In this document: one piece after another, positions 2,253 to 45,117 of the stretch
Numbering within the stretch: position 1 is the first letter of the stretch
Layout: every line of letters starts with the position of its first letter
Assembly: GCA_951406725.2 (NCBI GenBank)
Contig: OX597822.1
Coordinates: forward strand, 65,410,001 to 65,474,000
DNA length: 64,000 bases
Direction of reading: 5' to 3'
DNA from: Octopus vulgaris
Lineage: Eukaryota
Notes under the pieces: generated by a model
Seen by the model: the letters and a program-made list of their open reading frames with translations, nothing else
Told to the model about the DNA's origin: nothing
Databases searched by the model: none
Translations under genes and position numbers: made by a program

Positions 2253-2322
2253 GCCATGATAAAACTCCGAGTTTCAGATGTCGGGGTGGAAACCCACGCA
2301 GGCATCTCTTCAGCTGTTAGGC
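2253..2322 (-). ncRNA. Hammerhead-like motif
   Basis: Minus strand: CTGAAGA-gatg...gtgg gttt ccac...catc-t-GAAA-ctc g gag-TT. Stem I is weak. Confidence 0.55.
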
Positions 2323-4634
2323 CATCGATAGATTATATATAATCTGTTAGGCCATCGATAGATTATATATAATCGATGGAGTATATATATATTTTCGATA
2401 GATTAATGAATGTGTTTTATAAAGACGTATGTTTAAAATATTCGTTTCTACTCTAGGCATCAGGCCCGAAATTTTGAAGGAGGGGTACTGTCGATTATAA
2501 TATTGTAATTATAACTATATGCACTCGATTTCCTTCTAATACGTTGCAGAATATAGCCCAAAATCAAATTATAGAAGCAACAGAAATTAAGAAACGATGA
2601 ACTGACAAGATTTATGTTACATTATTCTCTGACAAAATATATGGGATAATTTTATAGGAATGTAGGTTTGTACACATTCTCTTCAGATCTGCGTACGAAT
2701 TTTTGATTGAATGTATGATATATCTAATTATTTTTGAATTAAGAAGTTATCCTAAAAAAATAGATAAATATATAAACTGAAAATAATAATGCTGGGCGAA
2801 AAATAACATAGCTTATAATACTTCAGATGATCTAAAAATGTTATTGAAATCATTCTTCATTATAAATTAGAAAGAAAATGAAATATGGGAGAAACCTGTA
2901 GCAAAATGTATTTTCCTAGCATTACTTAAAAATTCTTTCCACATGAATGGGAACTGTAGCCACATGTTTTTATTTTACAATATAAGTATTTAGTCGGTCT
3001 ATATGTTTTGCGTTCAAATTCCGCTCAGCTCGACTCTGGCTTTTATCATTTCGATGTCCATAATTTAAGGACTTGAATCGATGTAATCGATTTATGCCGC
3101 CACAGAAATTGCTGGCTTTGTGCCAAAATTTGTAACCATTACAATTATTTAGTGATTCTAATATATGGTTCCTCGTTCAATTCCAGTATCTACTTACCAA
3201 AAAAAAAAAACCCCTCTAGGGGAAGCTGGGTAGGCAGAGACAATTAAAATCCCGTTCATTGCGATTACGTTTTCCCTATTTCTGATGACAATATAATAAA
3301 CATCATTCAAGATAGTAGAGGTCGGAATAATCGACTAAAGGTGATGTCCCTTCATGGACGTTGCTCGTTGACTAAAAACAATCATATATGAGGATATAAT
3401 AAATAAGTCATACCATGATGTGAGTGGATGTTACACATCCGAAGCTAGTTCAAATGGGTTTCTCTGAGGACTATGCTAGCTATTGAAACTCGTTCCTACG
3501 TAAATATCCCTTGGCATTAGTCAACATAAATACATTGTTTTGTTTAGTACATTGTTAAATTGGAAGCGAAGCTATTCAGATTAAAGTTATAACTTCGTTA
3601 CTTCTCGTGGAAAATAAATACAGGGAAGTATAATCTCACTCCTTAGCAAAATAAACTATGAAATATGCACAGACGTGCACACACGCATACACACACACAA
3701 ACACACACGAAATTATATTCTCTTTTTTTTCTTTCTTACTGTGCTTTATAGTCCGTTTCTCCTTTGACTCACACATTCCCTTATCGCGATTAAGTAGAAT
3801 GCTTGTCCTCTGCCACTTGTTTCAACCTCCCAGCAATCACAGACTCTCAACATCTGCTATATTCTTTCAAAGCAAAACACAGAAAACAGTTGAATGAACG
3901 GATGTCCGTACGAAAGCATTGAATTTGACAGCAATGCCTCAAGTAAAAATTTGCTACAGCAAAGTAGCTCCACTTAAAGGCATTCCAAATCTAATTGTTT
4001 GCATATAGTTTTCACTGAATGCAATCTTCCATAAGTATTCAACGTCGCTTTTCGAAAACTTCTCCACATCAGTGTCAATTCAAAATGGCGATTAACGTGC
4101 GAAACATTCCAAATTAGCTTAATCCGATCATTCTATCATATTTCTGTGATCAACTGAGAGAAGAAGTAAGGGGTATCACAATGCGAGAGAATGTGTCCAC
4201 TGGGCTATTCCTTTCCTTCGACCCTCGGCCACAATTAATTCGAGTAGTCAGCCCAACGATGGAATAAAATTTACGTGCGAAGCTGTTGTTCAGTGATACG
4301 TAACAGAATTAAGACAATGGCTGAGGGCTGATTATTCGTTGCATTACCACAAGGCCGATTTTCTAACAATACTTAAAATGATATATATAAGTTGGTTTTG
4401 GAAACAATACACAGATATTGTATTACGCAATGAAACGTCTTGAATAAGATGCAAGCTAGCCTCAGGTATACTGCATACAACGCAGTGAGACTTGATACAT
4501 GTCTCTTGTATGTTCCGCTCTTAGCATTTTATTTTATTTCTCAGTTACTTACTCCCGCTTCCTGTACCTGTGGCTTTTTTTTCTCACCCTGTCATCTATC
4601 TATTATACTTTTTAGTTAGAACACATTTTACTAA

Positions 4635-6738: not shown

Positions 6739-7375
6739 GGCGGCGAGCTGGCAGAAACGTTAGCACGCCGGGCGAAATACGTAGCCGTATTTCGTCTGCC
6801 GTTACGTTCTGAGATCAAATTCCGCCGAGGTCAACTTTGCCTTTCATCCTTTCGGGGCCCATAAATTAAGTACCAGTTACGCACTAGGGTCGATATAATC
6901 GACTTAATCCTTTGTCTGTCCTTGTTTGTCCTCTCTGTGTTTAGCCCCTTGTGGGTAGTAAAGAAATAGGTATTTCGTCTGCCGCTACGTTCTGAGTTCA
7001 AATTCCGCCGAGGTCGACTTAGCCTTTCATCCTTTCGGGGTCGATTAAAATAAGTACTTGTTACGCACTGAGGTCGATATAATCGACTTAATCCGTTTGC
7101 CTGTCCTTGTTTTTCCCCTCTATGTTTAGCCCCTTGTGGGCAGTAAAGAAATAAGAAACGTTAGCACGCCGGGCGAAATGCTTAGCACTATTTCGCATGC
7201 CGTTACGTTCTGAGTTCAAATTCCGCCGAGGTCGACTTAGCCTTTCATCCTTTCGGGGTCGATTAAATAAGTACCAGTTACGCACTGGGGTCGATATAAT
7301 CGACTTAATCCATTTGCCTGTCCTTGTTTGTCTCCTCTATGTTTATCTCCTTGTGGGCAATAAAAAAATAAGTAC
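6739..7375 (+). mobile_element. Three tandem SINE family A copies
   Basis: ggcggcgagctggcagaaacgttagc (A-box) ... gagttcaaattccgcc (B-box) ... gcctttcatcctttcggggtcgat ... gccccttgtgggtagtaaagaaata, repeated three times. Confidence 0.88.
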
Positions 7376-29950: not shown

Positions 29951-29998
<48 letters not shown>

Positions 29999-30013
29999 TT
30001 ATTATATAGAAGG

Positions 30014-30064
30014 AGCTTCTACAGGACTAGAACTGTTTCATTCAAGAGAAATCTTCAGGAAGCT
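30014..30064 (-). ncRNA. Type I hammerhead ribozyme
   Basis: Reverse complement of the 37145-37195 hammerhead. Confidence 0.82.
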
Positions 30065-31350
30065 AGTTAACAAGAATTGTATCGGCATTTATACATTTAG
30101 GCAGGTTTAAAGGGGTGTTGGTGGGGGACTTTTTGGGGGTAGGCATAGCGCAAAATATCATACTTGGGGGAGTGGTCAAGGAGTCAGTGTTAAATTAGAT
30201 AGAAGAATAAATAAAAAAAAAAAAAAATAAAATAAAATTAAAAAAAAAAATCTATATATAAAAAAAGGGGAATAGAGTTTTAGGTAAATAAGGAGATTCT
30301 CACTTATACCTATGCACACATGTATACATACATACACACACATACAAACATATATACATATACATACACACATACATACACACACATATATATACATATA
30401 TATACACTTACACATACATATACATATCTACACATACACATATATGTATACATACACACACTCACATGCATACACGTATACACACATGTATATATACACA
30501 CACGACCACACATACATATACGCACAGAAAAATATATATACACATACACACACATACTCACATACACGCATACACACACATATCCACACACACACATGCA
30601 CACACAGCACACTAGTCCCTATATACACATACACACACATATACACACACACACATACATATACATACATGTATATATATATATACATATATATACATAT
30701 GTGTACCTATGCATACCTACACACACACACATATATATACACATACAAATACAGACCCATTCCCTAATTTTAATTTTATTATCTTCGTTTATTACTTTTG
30801 TTATCTTTGGCCGCTTGGTCACAAACATCTTGGCTATGACAGCCAGTCCATTTATCTGTCTACTGGAAAACAAGCACTCATTCACTCACGCACACTCTTT
30901 AGCACGTATACTCACTCATTCGTACACTCATACACATACATGCACGCACGCGTTATATTCATACATACATACATCTACATACATTCACGTATATACACAT
31001 ACGTACGCGTACCTACAGATTCATGTCTACACTCTTAGAAGGCTAGTCTATATATATACACCAATAAATATAAATACACACACATACATATACACCTACA
31101 TACAAATACATACATGTATATATATATATATATTCACATATATATACGCATACATATACATACACACATACACACACATACGCATACACACACATATACA
31201 TATATATACACACATACACATACATACATATACACACATACACATACATACGTATACATACATACATACATCCATACATCCATACATACATACATTTATA
31301 CACATACACACACCCACATACATACATATATATACGCGCATATATATATA

Positions 31351-31440
<90 letters not shown>

Positions 31441-31445
<5 letters not shown>

Positions 31446-31622
31446 CATTATTGTATATAAGTGCATTGTAATAATGCCCTCTATACAATATAGATATAAT
31501 TAATTTGTTCAAAAGGAAAAAATTATTTTCGGATTCTTTTCTTTTATGAGGTTTTCACGCTAGCTACCCGATAATTTCTTGTTAAGATCCCTTATTAAGA
31601 GATTATCCTTAATTGTTAAACT
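31441..31622. mobile_element. Short insertion in (TA)n, present only in the left arm
   Basis: Starts with hairpin agggcattat...ataatgccct. The mirror position (~35880-35915) is plain (TA)n. Confidence 0.65.
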
Positions 31623-31664
<42 letters not shown>

Positions 31665-32056
31665 CATATATATTCATACACACACATACATATACATACA
31701 TACATATACAAATATACGCACACACATACATACATACTCATATACTCATACACGCACATACACATGTACATGCGTACCCATACACACACACACACACGCG
31801 CGCGCATCCATATATACACATAAGTACACCCATGCGTAAAAGTATACATATATCTATGCTTACACATACACACACACACACGCGCCTCCTTATATTCATA
31901 CTTACATGCATACTCAAAAAATAAGTAAATAGTAAAATATATATACGCGCAGTTATTCATACATGCATACTCAAAAGATAAATAATAAATATTAAGTATA
32001 TGTACGTGCAGTTGCCTATTATATAGACGGATACATACATATAAACTTACACACAT

Positions 32057-32103
<47 letters not shown>

Positions 32104-32177
32104 CATACATATATACACACACATATACACATACACATATACATACATATATATATATATACACACACACATACACA

Positions 32178-32229
<52 letters not shown>

Positions 32230-32446
32230 CTTACACACATGTACATATAAATACACACAGATAACTCTACGTACCTACATATACATAAACACACGAGCGT
32301 ACGCGTGTATGTACACATACACATACACATACACACGCATATATATACATACATACATACACATACACACATGTATACACACACACACACATACACATAT
32401 ATATACATACACATATATATACATATATATATATATACATATATAT

Positions 32447-33400
32447 GGCTGCCCATATCGGAGCAATCTCAAGATTAATCAGCCGAAATTGCTAAGATGA
32501 TCTGGTTCTTGACTGATGACTGAGGGCTTCGAATGTCCCGTCCTGTGGTTCTTGTGTCGTCTCTGTGGCGTTTCATGTTCTTGTCCATGTCTGTAATTAT
32601 TTTTACTGTTTACCTATATAATCGGCGGCTACGTATCCACAATTGTCCTTATACGATAAGTATATTTTTTTCTCAAGCATTGATACGACTCTTAATCTTT
32701 CTTTCTCTCTCTCTCTCCTCCCTTATTCCCCCTCCTTTCTTTCCCTCTCCATCCGTTTCCCCCCCCCCCTTCTACGTTTCTCTATCTCTCTCACCTCCAG
32801 CCCCCTCGATCTGTCTCTTTCTTCTCCTCCCTCGTCCACCTTCTCTCTCTTTTCATCTGTCCCTTTCTCTTGTCTTTTGTTCTCACGTGACCGCTGACCG
32901 CTGTTGAGCGCTCTTTTCGTTCCAGCAGCCGTTGAAGCAACACGTACTTGTTCGTCTCCCTGTGGCCATTAGGCACAACTTCATAAGCCAGCCCCATGCT
33001 CAATTCGTCCTGTCGAAAGACCCTTGTCCTAGGTCCTGGTTTTGTTTTGTTGTTTATTTTTTATACTTTATTTTTACCGTTATTGTTTTTACGTTTTTGT
33101 ATTCTTATTGTTGTCACGTATTCTGTATTTTTGTTCGTGTACTTCGTTCGTTTTCCGTCCTCGTGTTGTATACATTCGAAGCTTTCTTCCAGGGGATCTA
33201 ATGCAATTGGCTTAGATTTCCCGTGGCGGGCTGCCCATATCGGAGCAATCTCAAGATTAATCAGCCGAAATTGCTAAGATGATCTGGTTCTTGACTGATG
33301 ACTGAGGGCTTCGAATGTCCCGTCCTGTGGTTCTTGTGTCGTCTCTGTGGCGTTTCATGTTCTTGTCCATGTCTGTAATTATTTTTACTGTTTACCTATA
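32447..33400 (+). mobile_element. Non-coding element with identical ~170 bp direct terminal repeats (pseudo-LTR/retrozyme-like), left arm only
   Basis: 32447-32620 equals 33229-33402 (ggctgcccatatcggagc...tgtttacctatata), with a 782 bp period and no TG...CA termini. Confidence 0.8.
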
Positions 33401-33577
33401 TATATATATACATATATATATATACACATACACATACACACACATATATATACATGTGTGCAAACATACATACATTCTCATACAAGCACACACACTTACA
33501 TTTACATATATACACACACTTACACACATATATACATACACATGTACATACATACATACATACGTATATGCATACAT

Positions 33578-33612
<35 letters not shown>

Positions 33613-33703
33613 CATACATACATACACATACACAAACCCATACATATATATACACACATATATATATATACACATGCACATACTTATATCTCTACATACT
33701 CGC

Positions 33704-33746
<43 letters not shown>

Positions 33747-33975
33747 CACACACATACATATACCTATATACATGTATATATACACATACATATATATACA
33801 CATCTACAATTTGTATCTACACTCACATACCTGCACATACACATAACTCTACATACCTACATATACATCGACATACTCGCGTACACTCATATATATACAC
33901 ATATATACATATACACACACACATACATATACATATACACACACATATATATACATATATATGTGTATATATATG

Positions 33976-34009
<34 letters not shown>

Positions 34010-34089
34010 GTATGTATGTATATATGTATATATGTGTGTATGCATATGTATGTGTATATGTATGTGTGTATGTATGTGTATGTATGTAT

Positions 34090-34310
34090 AAAATATTATA
34101 TAATTAGGGCTTAGTAAAATAAATTACTTTGCCACATACTGAACTTTCTAGAAATAGCAGCCAATAAAGTGTTTTTAGCCTCTTCCACTACTTAGAGAAT
34201 ATTTTCCCTCAGACATTGTTTACTCATAAAAATAATGGTCCTTTTACATACTGAATACTTGGTGAAATTGATTAATAACTAATTAACTTTACCCTCAATT
34301 GTTGATATAC
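34090..34310. other. Non-microsatellite spacer at the centre of the giant inverted repeat, probably another short repeat element
   Basis: Shares atactgaacttt and agaaatagcag(c/t)caa motifs with the element at 62272-63099. Confidence 0.4.
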
Positions 34311-34441
34311 GTATGTGTGTGTATATATATGTGTGTGTATGTGTATATGTACATGTATGTATATGTGTATGTATGTATGTGTGTATGTATATGTATATAT
34401 ATATGTATGTATATGTATATATATATGTATATATACATGTA

Positions 34442-34495
<54 letters not shown>

Positions 34496-34545
34496 CATAT
34501 ATGTATGTGTGTGTATATGTGTATTATATATGTATATATTGTATA

Positions 34546-34576
<31 letters not shown>

Positions 34577-34750
34577 GTGTGTGTATATGTATATATGTGT
34601 ATATATATGAGTGTACGCGAGTATGTCGATGTATATGTAGGTATGTAGAGTTATGTGTATGTGCAGGTATGTGAGTGTAGATACAAATTGTAGATGTGTA
34701 TATATATGTATGTGTATATATACATGTATATAGGTATATGTATGTGTGTG

Positions 34751-34787
<37 letters not shown>

Positions 34788-35320
34788 GCGTAGTATGTAG
34801 AGATATAAGTATGTGCATGTGTATATATATATGTGTGTATATATATGTATGGGTATGTGTATGTGTATGTATGTATATATATATATATATATATATATAC
34901 ACAAACCCATACATATGTGTGTATGTATGTACACATGCATATACGTATGTATGTATGTACATATACATATATATATATGTGTAAGTGTGTATATATATGT
35001 AAATGTAAGTGTGTGTATTGTATGAGAATGTATGTATGTTTGCACACATGTATATATATGTGTGTGTATGTGTATATATATATATATGTATGTATATATA
35101 TGTATATATATATACACATATATATATATGTATACATATATATGTATATATATGTGTATATATATATGTATATATATGTGTGTATGTGTATGTATGTATG
35201 TATATATATGCGTGTGTATGTGTATGTGTATATGTACATATACGCGTACGCTCGTGTGTTTATGTATATGTAGGTACGTAGAGTTATCTATGTGTGTATT
35301 TATATGTACATGTGTGTAAG

Positions 35321-35383
<63 letters not shown>

Positions 35384-35440
35384 ATATATATATGTATGTA
35401 TGTGTGTATATGTGTATGTGTATATATGTGTGTATATATG

Positions 35441-35475
<35 letters not shown>

Positions 35476-35863
35476 ATGTGTGTAAGTTTATATGTATGTA
35501 TCCGTCTATATAATAGGTAACTGCACGTACATATACTTAATATTTATTATTTATCTTTTGAGTATGCATGTATGAATAACTGCGCGTATATATATTTTAC
35601 TATTTACTTATTTTTTGAGTATGCATGTAAGTATGAATATAAGGAGGCGCGTGTGTGTGTGTGTGTATGTGTAAGCATAGATATATGTATACTTTTACGC
35701 ATGGGTGTATGTGTATATATGGATGCGCGCGCGTGTGTGTGTGTGTATGGGTACGCATGTACATGTGTATGTGCGTGTATGAGTATATGAGTATGTATGT
35801 ATGTGTGTGCGTATATTTGTATATGTATGTATGTATATGTATGTGTGTGTATGAATATGTGTG

Positions 35864-35915
<52 letters not shown>

Positions 35916-36155
35916 TATATATATATATGCGCGTATATATATGTATGTATGTGGGTGTGTGTATGTGTATAAATGTATGTATGTATGGATGTATGGATGT
36001 ATGTATGTATGTATACGTATGTATGTGTATGTGTGTATATGTATGTATGTGTATGTGTGTATATATATGTATATGTGTGTATATGCGTATATGTGTGTAT
36101 GTATGTATGTGTATGTATATATGTGTATATATATGTGAATATATATATGTGTGTA

Positions 36156-36196
<41 letters not shown>

Positions 36197-36624
36197 ATTT
36201 GTATGTAGGTGTACATGTATGTGTGTGTATTTATATTTATTGGTGTATATATATATAGACTAGCCTTCTCAGAGTGTAGACATGAATCTGTAGGTACGCG
36301 TATGTGTATGTACGTATGTGTATATACGTGAATGTATGTAGATGTATGTATGTATGAATATAACGCGTGCGTGCGTGTATGTGTATGAGTGTACGAATGA
36401 GTGAGTGTACGTGCTAAAGAGTGTGCGTGAGTGAATGAGTGCTTGTTTTCCAGTAGACAGATAAATGGACTGGCTGTCATAGCCAAGATGTTTGTGACCA
36501 AGCGGCCAAAGATAACAAAAGTAATAAACGAAGATAATAAAATTAAAATTAGGGAATGGGTCTGTATTTGTATGTGTATATATATATGTGTGTATGTAGG
36601 TATGCATAGGTACACATATGTATA

Positions 36625-36667
<43 letters not shown>

Positions 36668-37144
36668 GTATGTGTGTGTGTATATGTGTGTATGTATGTG
36701 TATATAGGGACTAGTGTGCTGTGTGTGCATGTGTGTGTGTGGATATGTGTGTGTATGCGTGTATGTGAGTATGTGTGTGTATGTGTATATATATTTTTCT
36801 GTGCGTATATGTATGTGTGGTCGTGTGTGTGTATATATACATGTGTGTATACGTGTATGCATGTGAGTGTGTGTATGTATACATATATGTGTATGTGTAG
36901 ATATGTATATGTATGTGTAAGTGTATATATATTATTTTATGTGTTTATGTTTTTATGTATTATGTTTTATTTTATTTTATGTGTTTTTTTTTTTTTATTT
37001 ATTCTTCTATCTAATTTAACACTGACTCCTTGACCACTCCCCCAAGTATGATATTTTGCGCTATGCCTACCCCCAAAAAGTCCCCCACCAACACCCCCTT
37101 AAACCTGCCTAAATGTATAAATGCCAATACAATTCTTGTTAACT

Positions 37145-37195
37145 AGCTTCCTGAAGATTTCTCTTGAATGAAACAGTTCTAGTCCTGTAGAAGCT
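37145..37195 (+). ncRNA. Type I hammerhead ribozyme, complete core
   Basis: agcttc-CTGAAGA-t ttc tctt gaa t-GAAA-cag ttctagtc ctg-TA-gaagct. 6-bp stem I, stem III acag/ctgt, GUA cleavage triplet. Confidence 0.85.
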
Positions 37196-37278
37196 CCTTC
37201 TATATAATAAATTAATTTTACTCTGCTATGTATTGAGTACCTTATTTACTGTGGTTAACCCCGAATCAACCCGGGACC

Positions 37279-37319
<41 letters not shown>

Positions 37320-44810: not shown

Positions 44811-44860
44811 ACGTATATATATTTATATGAGTGTGTGCTTGTATATATATATATACATAT

Positions 44861-44922
<62 letters not shown>

Positions 44923-44925
<3 letters not shown>

Positions 44926-45056
44926 GGTCCCGGGTTGAGTCGGGGTTAACCACAGTAAATAAGGTACTCAATACATAGCAGAGTAAAGTAATTTATTTTA
45001 TAGAAGGAGCTTCTACAGGACTAGAACTGTTTCATTCAGATGAAATCTTCAGGAAG

Positions 45057-45059
<3 letters not shown>
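44923..45059 (-). mobile_element. Solo ~137 bp hammerhead-plus-tail element in (TA)n (hammerhead 45008-45058)
   Basis: Homologous to 37145-37281. The stem II loop differs (atct vs tctt) while stems and core are conserved. Confidence 0.85.

Positions 45060-45117
<58 letters not shown>

What the first reader, a model, noticed from the sequence alone, without database searches (positions are those of the whole stretch)
44923..45059. Minimal mobile unit: 137-bp hammerhead plus tail, solo in (TA)n
The same module that caps the giant palindrome occurs alone. It starts almost exactly at the ribozyme stem I and ends at the same tail terminus (gggacctac). Within the ribozyme, differences from the 37145 copy fall in the stem II loop, consistent with structural selection. 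This shows the module is dispersed independently and defines its 3' end.
Basis: partly seen in the sequence, partly recalled or inferred. Interest (0 to 1): 0.75.

Follow-up and report, generated by a model that had tools for sequence, protein, structure and literature searches.

The report
Penelope retrotransposon leader copied to cap
This 137-base piece is not a mobile element of its own but the ribozyme-shaped end repeat of a common Penelope-type jumping gene, and its extra first letter suggests it was likely pasted in when the copying enzyme started near the front of the RNA and ran off its cap.

Summary
The unit is real: a type I hammerhead-shaped motif plus 68-nt tail between (TA)n runs, with 4,725 exact tail-pattern matches in the genome. 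It is not an independent element. It is the pseudo-LTR end of a Hydra-clade Penelope-like retrotransposon; a natural full-length copy carries it 46 nt before a 713-aa RT/GIY-YIG-type ORF and again at the 3' end. The scan met such Penelope ends before in other windows of this genome. What is added here: 5' ends pile up at one base (42 of 92 copies within positions 1-8, none at -6..0), that base lies 29 nt behind a TATA-like box, and solo copies carry an extra G (37 of 51) that the parent never has (0 of 69). Best reading (inferred): position 2 is the transcription start, the G is a reverse-transcribed cap, and the unit is a run-off cDNA from an internal reverse-transcription start. Two such cDNAs joined at their cap ends would explain the common head-to-head hairpins. 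Cleavage, capping and start site are untested.

The parts
45059..45059 (-). Extra G at unit position 1, not present in parent copies; likely a reverse-transcribed 5' cap
   Evidence: G in 37 of 51 solo junctions genome-wide; parent base T 54, C 15, G 0 of 69
45008..45058 (-). Type I hammerhead-shaped motif (unit positions 2-52); 45058 is the inferred transcription start; predicted cut between 45014 and 45013; U-U at 10.1-11.1; self-complementary loop III
   Evidence: Sequence; subfamily changes only at N7, loop II, loop III; no Rfam hit; cleavage untested
44991..45007 (-). Spacer to the first fixed end (position 69, window 44991), where tail-less arms stop; inferred first reverse-transcription start
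   Evidence: 58 of 61 inverted arms begin at 67-73, 38 at 69
44923..44990 (-). 68-nt 'tail' ending at position 137; in full-length copies this is 5' leader ending 46 nt before the ATG; inferred second reverse-transcription start
44842..44922 (.). (TA)n target flank at the tail end; target duplication cannot be resolved
45060..45116 (.). (AT)n target flank at the ribozyme end
37145..37281 (+). Sister-subfamily copy with tail, closing the long direct arm (3' UTR of the same element family) of the 29997-37281 palindrome
   Evidence: matches to the 3' UTR of L138, L139, L142, L143
29997..30064 (-). Tail-less copy (positions 2-69) closing the inverted arm of the palindrome

Best explanation
The unit is the terminal repeat of a Hydra-clade Penelope-like retrotransposon, and it was likely inserted as a run-off cDNA of the capped 5' leader of the element's RNA. 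Shown: the same 136 nt sit 46 nt before the ORF and at the 3' end of a natural full-length copy; copies end at two fixed 3' points (69 and 137) in (TA)n; 5' ends pile up at position 2, 29 nt behind a TATA-like box; a non-parental G precedes that base in most solo copies. Inferred: RNA polymerase II starts at position 2, so the RNA begins with the first strand of hammerhead stem I; the element's GIY-YIG/RT protein nicks (TA)n and starts reverse transcription inside the RNA at +137 and +69; with so little template ahead, each cDNA reaches the cap, copies it as one extra base and is joined to the target. One cDNA gives a solo like this one; two cDNAs joined at their cap ends give the far commoner head-to-head hairpin; read-through templates or a template jump give long copies such as the window's palindrome. 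The templates were mostly not cut by their own ribozyme, because the copies run through the cut site. The solo lacks promoter and ORF and is predicted to be a dead end.
For: Full-length copy L138: repeat 2089-2225, ORF 2272-4410, repeat 6873-7007; Hydra motifs in the ORF (against PMC8557442 section 11). In the first 92 of 4,725 tail matches: direct-arm 5' end at position 2 in 23, at 1-8 in 42, at -6..0 in none; 40 of the 42 have an inverted arm; inverted arms end inward at position 2 in 20 of 61. TATAAA/CATAAA-type hexamer exactly 29 nt upstream in 67 of 69 long copies, pyrimidine at -1 in 69 of 69. Extra base after TATAT: G 37, C 8, A 5, T 1 of 51. Control: 0 of 17 solo loci starting near positions 42-49 have a lone extra G (counted by eye). 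Both arms of several hairpins carry the G. A second Hydra family (46% aa identity) has the same two 3' ends, and its solos start at one initiator-like base: 35 of 55 distinct loci directly after (TA)n, 4 more with a non-parental G (by eye). Precedent: untemplated 5' G attributed to cap copying in L1/SVA (PMC3287187, passages); two internal RT starts bounding the tail and uncleaved template preferred in anole Poseidon in vitro (PMC11167929).
Against: No RNA end data: start site and cap are inferred from DNA junctions only. Junction positions are blurred by microhomology (AGCT is a palindrome; many hairpin joints fit with or without the G). The 92 copies come from one chromosome arm and were chosen by having the tail. 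In the second family the G shows in only 4 of 55 loci and the AT overlap with the target could itself favour that start. 8 of 51 solos have C. D. virilis Penelope has a TATA-less internal promoter and an intron ending at helix I (PMC2377424 passages; PMC4209133), so the layout is not general. No intact ORF of the solo's own subfamily was seen (L031, L032 are broken); the intact ones belong to a sister subfamily 93-95% alike in the unit.
Confidence: 0.75

Rival explanations
1. Ordinary 5' truncation of a PLE 3' end: reverse transcription starts in the 3' repeat of a long RNA and stops or folds back at the AGCT palindrome or stem I; the G comes from a fold-back onto position 53.
For: AGCT-centred joints are the commonest hairpin joint; 5 of the first 100 rows show a stem I switch that supplies this G; 5' truncation with inverted arm and tail is the textbook PLE layout (PMC8557442 Fig. 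2 legend; PMC3846280 passages).
Against: Sharp edge with no ends at -6..0; fold-back should leave GG, AGG or longer remnants, and none is among 69 distinct solo loci (by eye); TATA-like box at fixed -29; same pattern in a second family without that palindrome.
Confidence: 0.17
2. Independent non-autonomous mini-element or monomeric retrozyme: solo units are transcribed, self-cleave or circularise and are copied again.
For: Fixed ends; dozens of identical dispersed copies; animal retrozymes are reported to derive from PLE pLTRs (10.64898/2026.07.22.740005, part 1 of 5 read).
Against: Solo lacks the upstream TATA-like box; single ribozyme, no tandem; solos come from several subfamilies, each matching a long parent type; one-off mutations hit the core as often as loops; copies are not permuted at the cut site.
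Confidence: 0.05
3. Spliced template: the AG at positions 2-3 is a splice acceptor and the G-A-G is the end of an upstream exon.
For: Parent reads YAG after a T-rich stretch in all subfamilies; an intron ends at helix I in D. virilis Penelope (PMC4209133).
Against: No shared letters upstream of the G among non-hairpin junctions in the first 100 of 767 matches or in solos.
Confidence: 0.03

Closest known systems
Hydra clade of C-terminal EN+ Penelope-like elements, including Hydra-1_Obim (Craig et al. 2021, PMC8557442; passages, section 11 and supplement rows read)
   Same: Single ORF with RW(K/R), DKT, CxCX5C linker, no CCHH, CxxC and CxH near the end; (TA)n target; hammerhead in the end repeat; tandem and inverted arms with optional tail.
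   Different: Different family from Hydra-1_Obim (its listed hammerhead differs; protein alike by eye only, no tree built); about 4.9 kb with a 2.4-kb microsatellite-rich 3' UTR against 'generally <3 kb'; tail 68 nt against 30-40; fixed 5' end with extra G not mentioned in the parts read.
Poseidon_Ac (PAc) of the green anole (Frangieh et al. 2024, PMC11167929; parts 1-2 of 4 read)
   Same: Two internal reverse-transcription starts bounding the tail; AT-rich target; uncut RNA as main template.
   Different: Other clade; there the ribozyme overlaps the start codon and the starts lie 111-118 nt inside the ORF; multi-copy mRNA proposed as template; no run-off at a cap reported in the parts read.
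[quoted passage not shown]
   Same: Type I, in pLTR, mostly as single truncated copies, palindromic helix III region suited to dimers.
   Different: Short stem II with U-U where they report a highly conserved G10.1-C11.1; 3-bp stem III with 8-nt loop.
Untemplated 5' G of full-length L1 and SVA insertions (PMC3287187, passages)
   Same: One extra G at the 5' junction, at the transcription start, attributed to copying of the cap.
   Different: There it marks full-length copies primed at the RNA 3' end; here it marks the shortest copies, primed near the RNA 5' end.

Membership tests
EN+ Penelope-like element | Single ORF with RT and C-terminal GIY-YIG-type nuclease | tested here: met
   713-aa ORF in L138 with YRDD at 347 and VY..YIG at 587-605; relatives carry PF26215, PF28514, some PF01541 or PF00078; the ORF itself has no Pfam hit above cut-off
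EN+ Penelope-like element | Direct pseudo-LTRs, inverted 5' arm, optional tail at one end | tested here: met
   L138, L142, L143 direct repeats; L139, L146, L149 inverted or tail-less ends; 40 of 42 short copies with inverted arm
EN+ Penelope-like element | RT phylogeny groups with PLEs | not tested
   No tree built; likeness to the Hydra proteins printed in the supplement judged by eye
Hydra clade | RWK motif; DKG changed to DKT | tested here: met
   RWR at 38, DKT at 116 in L138; RWK at 37 in the second family
Hydra clade | CxCX5C linker, no CX2-5CxxC, no CCHH; CxxC and CxH around the last catalytic residues | tested here: met
   CxCX5C at 567, CxxC at 667, CxH at 695, no CX2-5CxxC, one Cys inside the GIY-YIG core
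Hydra clade | (TA)n target and hammerhead in end repeat | tested here: met
   92 of 92 3' junctions in AT repeat; motif in sequence
Type I hammerhead ribozyme | Core CUGANGA / GAAA / UH with three helices | tested here: met
   Sequence; shared variants only at N7, loop II, loop III, 5 of 5 in 13 free of 51 positions, p=5.5e-4
Type I hammerhead ribozyme | G10.1-C11.1 closing pair and stable monomer fold | tested here: not met
   U-U in 55 of 55 copies; predicted pairing probability of stems II and III 0.02 and 0.05 for this subfamily; helix III strand self-dimer -9.4 kcal/mol
Type I hammerhead ribozyme | Self-cleavage after GUA | not testable with these tools
   Needs an in vitro assay
Non-LTR retrozyme | Tandem non-coding units each with a hammerhead, copied without an ORF-bearing parent | tested here: not met
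   Single unit; parent with ORF found

The most novel reading that the evidence does not exclude
These elements replicate with a retrovirus-like strong-stop step: reverse transcription starts in the capped 5' leader, the short cDNA reaches the cap and normally jumps to the repeated sequence at the RNA 3' end (whose edge the hammerhead may cut), rebuilding promoter plus ORF; the thousands of 137/205-bp minis are failed jumps. One locus (L106) shows a run-off arm continuing seamlessly into 95 nt of upstream sequence of another subfamily's neighbouring copy, so such a jump can happen (1 of 70 long copies).
Probability: 0.2. Interest if true: 0.75.

Novelty: new member of a known kind. Interest (0 to 1): 0.42.

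Why it matters
The element is a known kind. The junction record is the useful part: it gives a start-site prediction to the base for a Penelope-like RNA, suggests that the ribozyme's first strand begins at the cap, and offers a simple sense-template origin for the head-to-head pLTR palindromes, which were earlier read as self-priming on an antisense RNA (PMC3846280, passages). How PLEs make inverted repeats and what their hammerhead does are open questions (PMC8557442, PMC11167929); this family, with thousands of young copies and intact ORFs, makes both testable.

Tried and rejected
Rfam: no match at gathering in the window and only AT-repeat noise at E<=10. Pfam: nothing for four ORF pieces, one weak unrelated hit for the whole ORF; PDB sequences: none. 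The repeat finder was swamped by microsatellites. Expression: no RNA holder listed; contigs of four runs only guessed to be RNA cover most of the ORF and leader but cannot show starts, strand or level, so not used as evidence. Idea that upstream sequence arms the ribozyme only in the 3' repeat by lengthening stem I: not supported; in the four commonest contexts stem I probability fell or stayed the same with 35 nt upstream, and rose only in two single copies. Run-off at the ribozyme cut site: 10 of 17 solo loci near there start at 45-47, but TA overlap with the target explains 9, and they are few against about 100 solos at position 2; inconclusive. First test of the second family was swamped by the parent's own AT run; redone. 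One search used wrong coordinates for two rows and is uninformative. Chimera test: upstream and leader types agree in 69 of 70 distinct long copies; jumps on the same RNA would be invisible. No PLE ORF of this family in the window (tblastn empty). Empty-site allele and target duplication were not examined. Literature: searches; none of the PLE papers listed holds 'untemplated G' and none of the 15 listed holds 'strong-stop'; subscription papers on Penelope are not in the library, and the bioRxiv supplement was not seen.

Full report
Observation. The minus strand of 44923-45059 reads as a type I hammerhead-shaped motif (unit positions 2-52), a 17-nt spacer and a 68-nt tail, set between (TA)n runs. 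The left end of the window's palindrome (29997-30064) is the same unit without tail. Rfam does not recognise the motif; it has U-U at 10.1-11.1 and its predicted monomer fold pairs stems II and III poorly, while the helix III strand can pair with itself as a dimer. Cleavage is untested.

Copy number. Among 40 scored of 1,207 candidates, 35 places are fully identical over 136-137 nt. A 28-nt tail pattern has 4,725 exact matches, reversed control 0. The genome has 2.8 billion bases; earlier scan notes call it octopus-like, which I did not test.

Parent. Flanks of the identical copies led upstream into a shared 3' UTR and an ORF. A protein search of the genome gave natural intact copies. L138 has the unit at 2089-2225, an ATG 46 nt later, a 713-aa ORF, a 2.4-kb microsatellite-rich 3' UTR and the unit again at 6873-7007. 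The ORF has RWR, DKT, YRDD, a CxCX5C linker, a GIY-YIG-like core without CCHH, and CxxC and CxH near the end: the features that Craig et al. give for the Hydra clade, together with (TA)n targeting and a hammerhead (PMC8557442 section 11). Their supplement lists Hydra-1_Obim, a different family by its hammerhead, with a protein alike by eye. 1,116 proteins match at E<=1e-20 among 7,992 scored, best 37-52% identical. No tree was built. The window's palindrome arms are 3' UTR of this family.

End census. I took the first 92 of the 100 listed tail matches (of 4,725; all on contig C1; the last 8 rows were not fetched). All 92 pass into AT repeat within 3 nt of position 137, where the parent itself continues with ATAT. 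Direct-arm 5' ends: 30 at -29 or further upstream, 4 at -14..-7, none at -6..0, 42 at 1-8 (23 at position 2), 12 at 10-33, 4 beyond 55 (local alignment, a few bases uncertain, one row probably misplaced). 40 of the 42 have an inverted arm. Inverted arms start at 67-73 in 58 of 61 and end inward at position 2 in 20 of 61. So the common short product is a hairpin of about 205 bp and the bare solo is rare: 148 pattern matches, 69 distinct loci in the first 100 rows. Of 25 distinct solo loci read, 12 have the tail, 11 stop near 69, 2 are other.

The extra G. After TATAT, the base before the ribozyme is G in 37, C in 8, A in 5 and T in 1 of 51 loci genome-wide, all rows listed (two pairs may be local duplicates). 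In copies that keep upstream parent sequence it is T in 54, C in 15 and G in 0 of 69 (not deduplicated; two copies with A were seen). In those 69, a TATAAA or CATAAA-type hexamer begins 29 nt upstream in 67. Solos starting near 42-49 show no lone extra G in 17 loci. In several hairpins both arms carry it (first 100 of 767 rows). An untemplated 5' G is attributed to copying of the cap in L1 and SVA (PMC3287187, passages). A second Hydra family in the genome has the same two 3' ends; of 55 distinct loci in the first 100 of 414 rows, 35 start at one initiator-like base straight after (TA)n, 4 have a non-parental G there, 2 the parental C (by eye). That support is weaker, because the AT overlap hides or favours that start.

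Selection. In 55 of the 92 copies that hold the whole unit, variants shared by three or more copies fall at N7, three loop II positions and one loop III position, none in 38 core or stem positions (p=5.5e-4; the filter required near-intact positions 2-11). One-off changes are as frequent in core (0.009 per site per copy) and stem I (0.014) as in loops (0.005-0.014). The fold is kept in the source elements; the scattered copies decay.

Mechanism. Frangieh et al. showed in vitro that an anole PLE starts reverse transcription at two internal sites that bound the tail, on AT-rich DNA, mainly on uncut RNA (PMC11167929, parts 1-2 of 4). Here the two sites would be +69 and +137 of an RNA that starts at position 2. 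A cDNA begun there reaches the cap after 68 or 136 nt, adds one base and is joined: one cDNA gives the solo, two give the hairpin. Long copies need a template with 3' UTR ahead of the leader: read-through into the 3' repeat, a tandem, or a jump. L106 shows one seamless jump onto a neighbour's sequence; 69 of 70 long copies show no mixed types. All of this paragraph beyond the junction counts is inference. RNA data could not test it.

Rivals. Plain truncation with fold-back at the AGCT palindrome explains many hairpin joints but not the sharp edge, the lone G without longer remnants, or the fixed TATA spacing. An independent mini-element or retrozyme is unlikely: no promoter, no tandem, neutral decay, every solo type has a long parent. 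A spliced template would leave shared exon letters before the G, and none is seen.

Novelty. PLE ends with hammerhead, tail and inverted arm are known (PMC4209133 parts 1-2, PMC3846280 passages, PMC8557442), and this scan noted them repeatedly in this genome, including the Hydra assignment and the short-end/long-end rule (unchecked AI notes). I found no note holding the cap and run-off words (one search returned LINEs that target start sites) and no paper among the listings, a library that lacks most subscription papers. Verdict: new family member of a known clade, with a junction signature that gives a testable model of the template's 5' end. Interest 0.42.

Noticed in passing
window 29997-37281: The giant palindrome is a long version of the same two-armed insertion: both arms are 3' UTR of this family (about 3.2 kb each), tail on the right arm only, no ORF.
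   Followed up: partly
window 32448-33398: A different insertion inside the left arm, with a 172-nt direct repeat at both ends holding CTGATGA and a pyrimidine-rich middle; looks like another PLE end, possibly with a variant hammerhead.
   Followed up: no
L145 1400-5260 (G000:C3:18122800-18129800): Second Hydra-type family, 46% aa identity, many intact 727-aa frames, 2,548 pattern matches; same leader layout, and its hammerhead also has a mismatched 10.1-11.1 pair (A-A).
   Followed up: partly
window 44963-44975 (unit positions 85-97): A tail motif of the form TGTATTGAGYAC recurs in the second family and in a Hydra consensus printed in the PMC8557442 supplement (record just before Hydra-1_Obim); candidate protein-binding signal between the two start points.
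   Followed up: no
L106 (G000:C1:37504100-37507400): A new insertion beside an older copy: its run-off arm continues into 95 nt identical to the neighbour's upstream sequence, a chimera of two subfamilies joined at the ribozyme's first bases.
   Followed up: partly
window 45019-45026 (loop III): One subfamily's T35A change lengthens the self-complementary centre of loop III and strengthens the predicted dimer from -9.4 to -11.8 kcal/mol.
   Followed up: partly
L133-L137, L141-L143, L149: Many near-identical copies share one frameshift that ends the ORF at about 500 aa, so a broken lineage appears to have been copied in trans.
   Followed up: no
L032 and L035: This element is nested in, or next to, a different PLE with a GIY-YIG domain bearing the usual cysteine pairs.
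   Followed up: no
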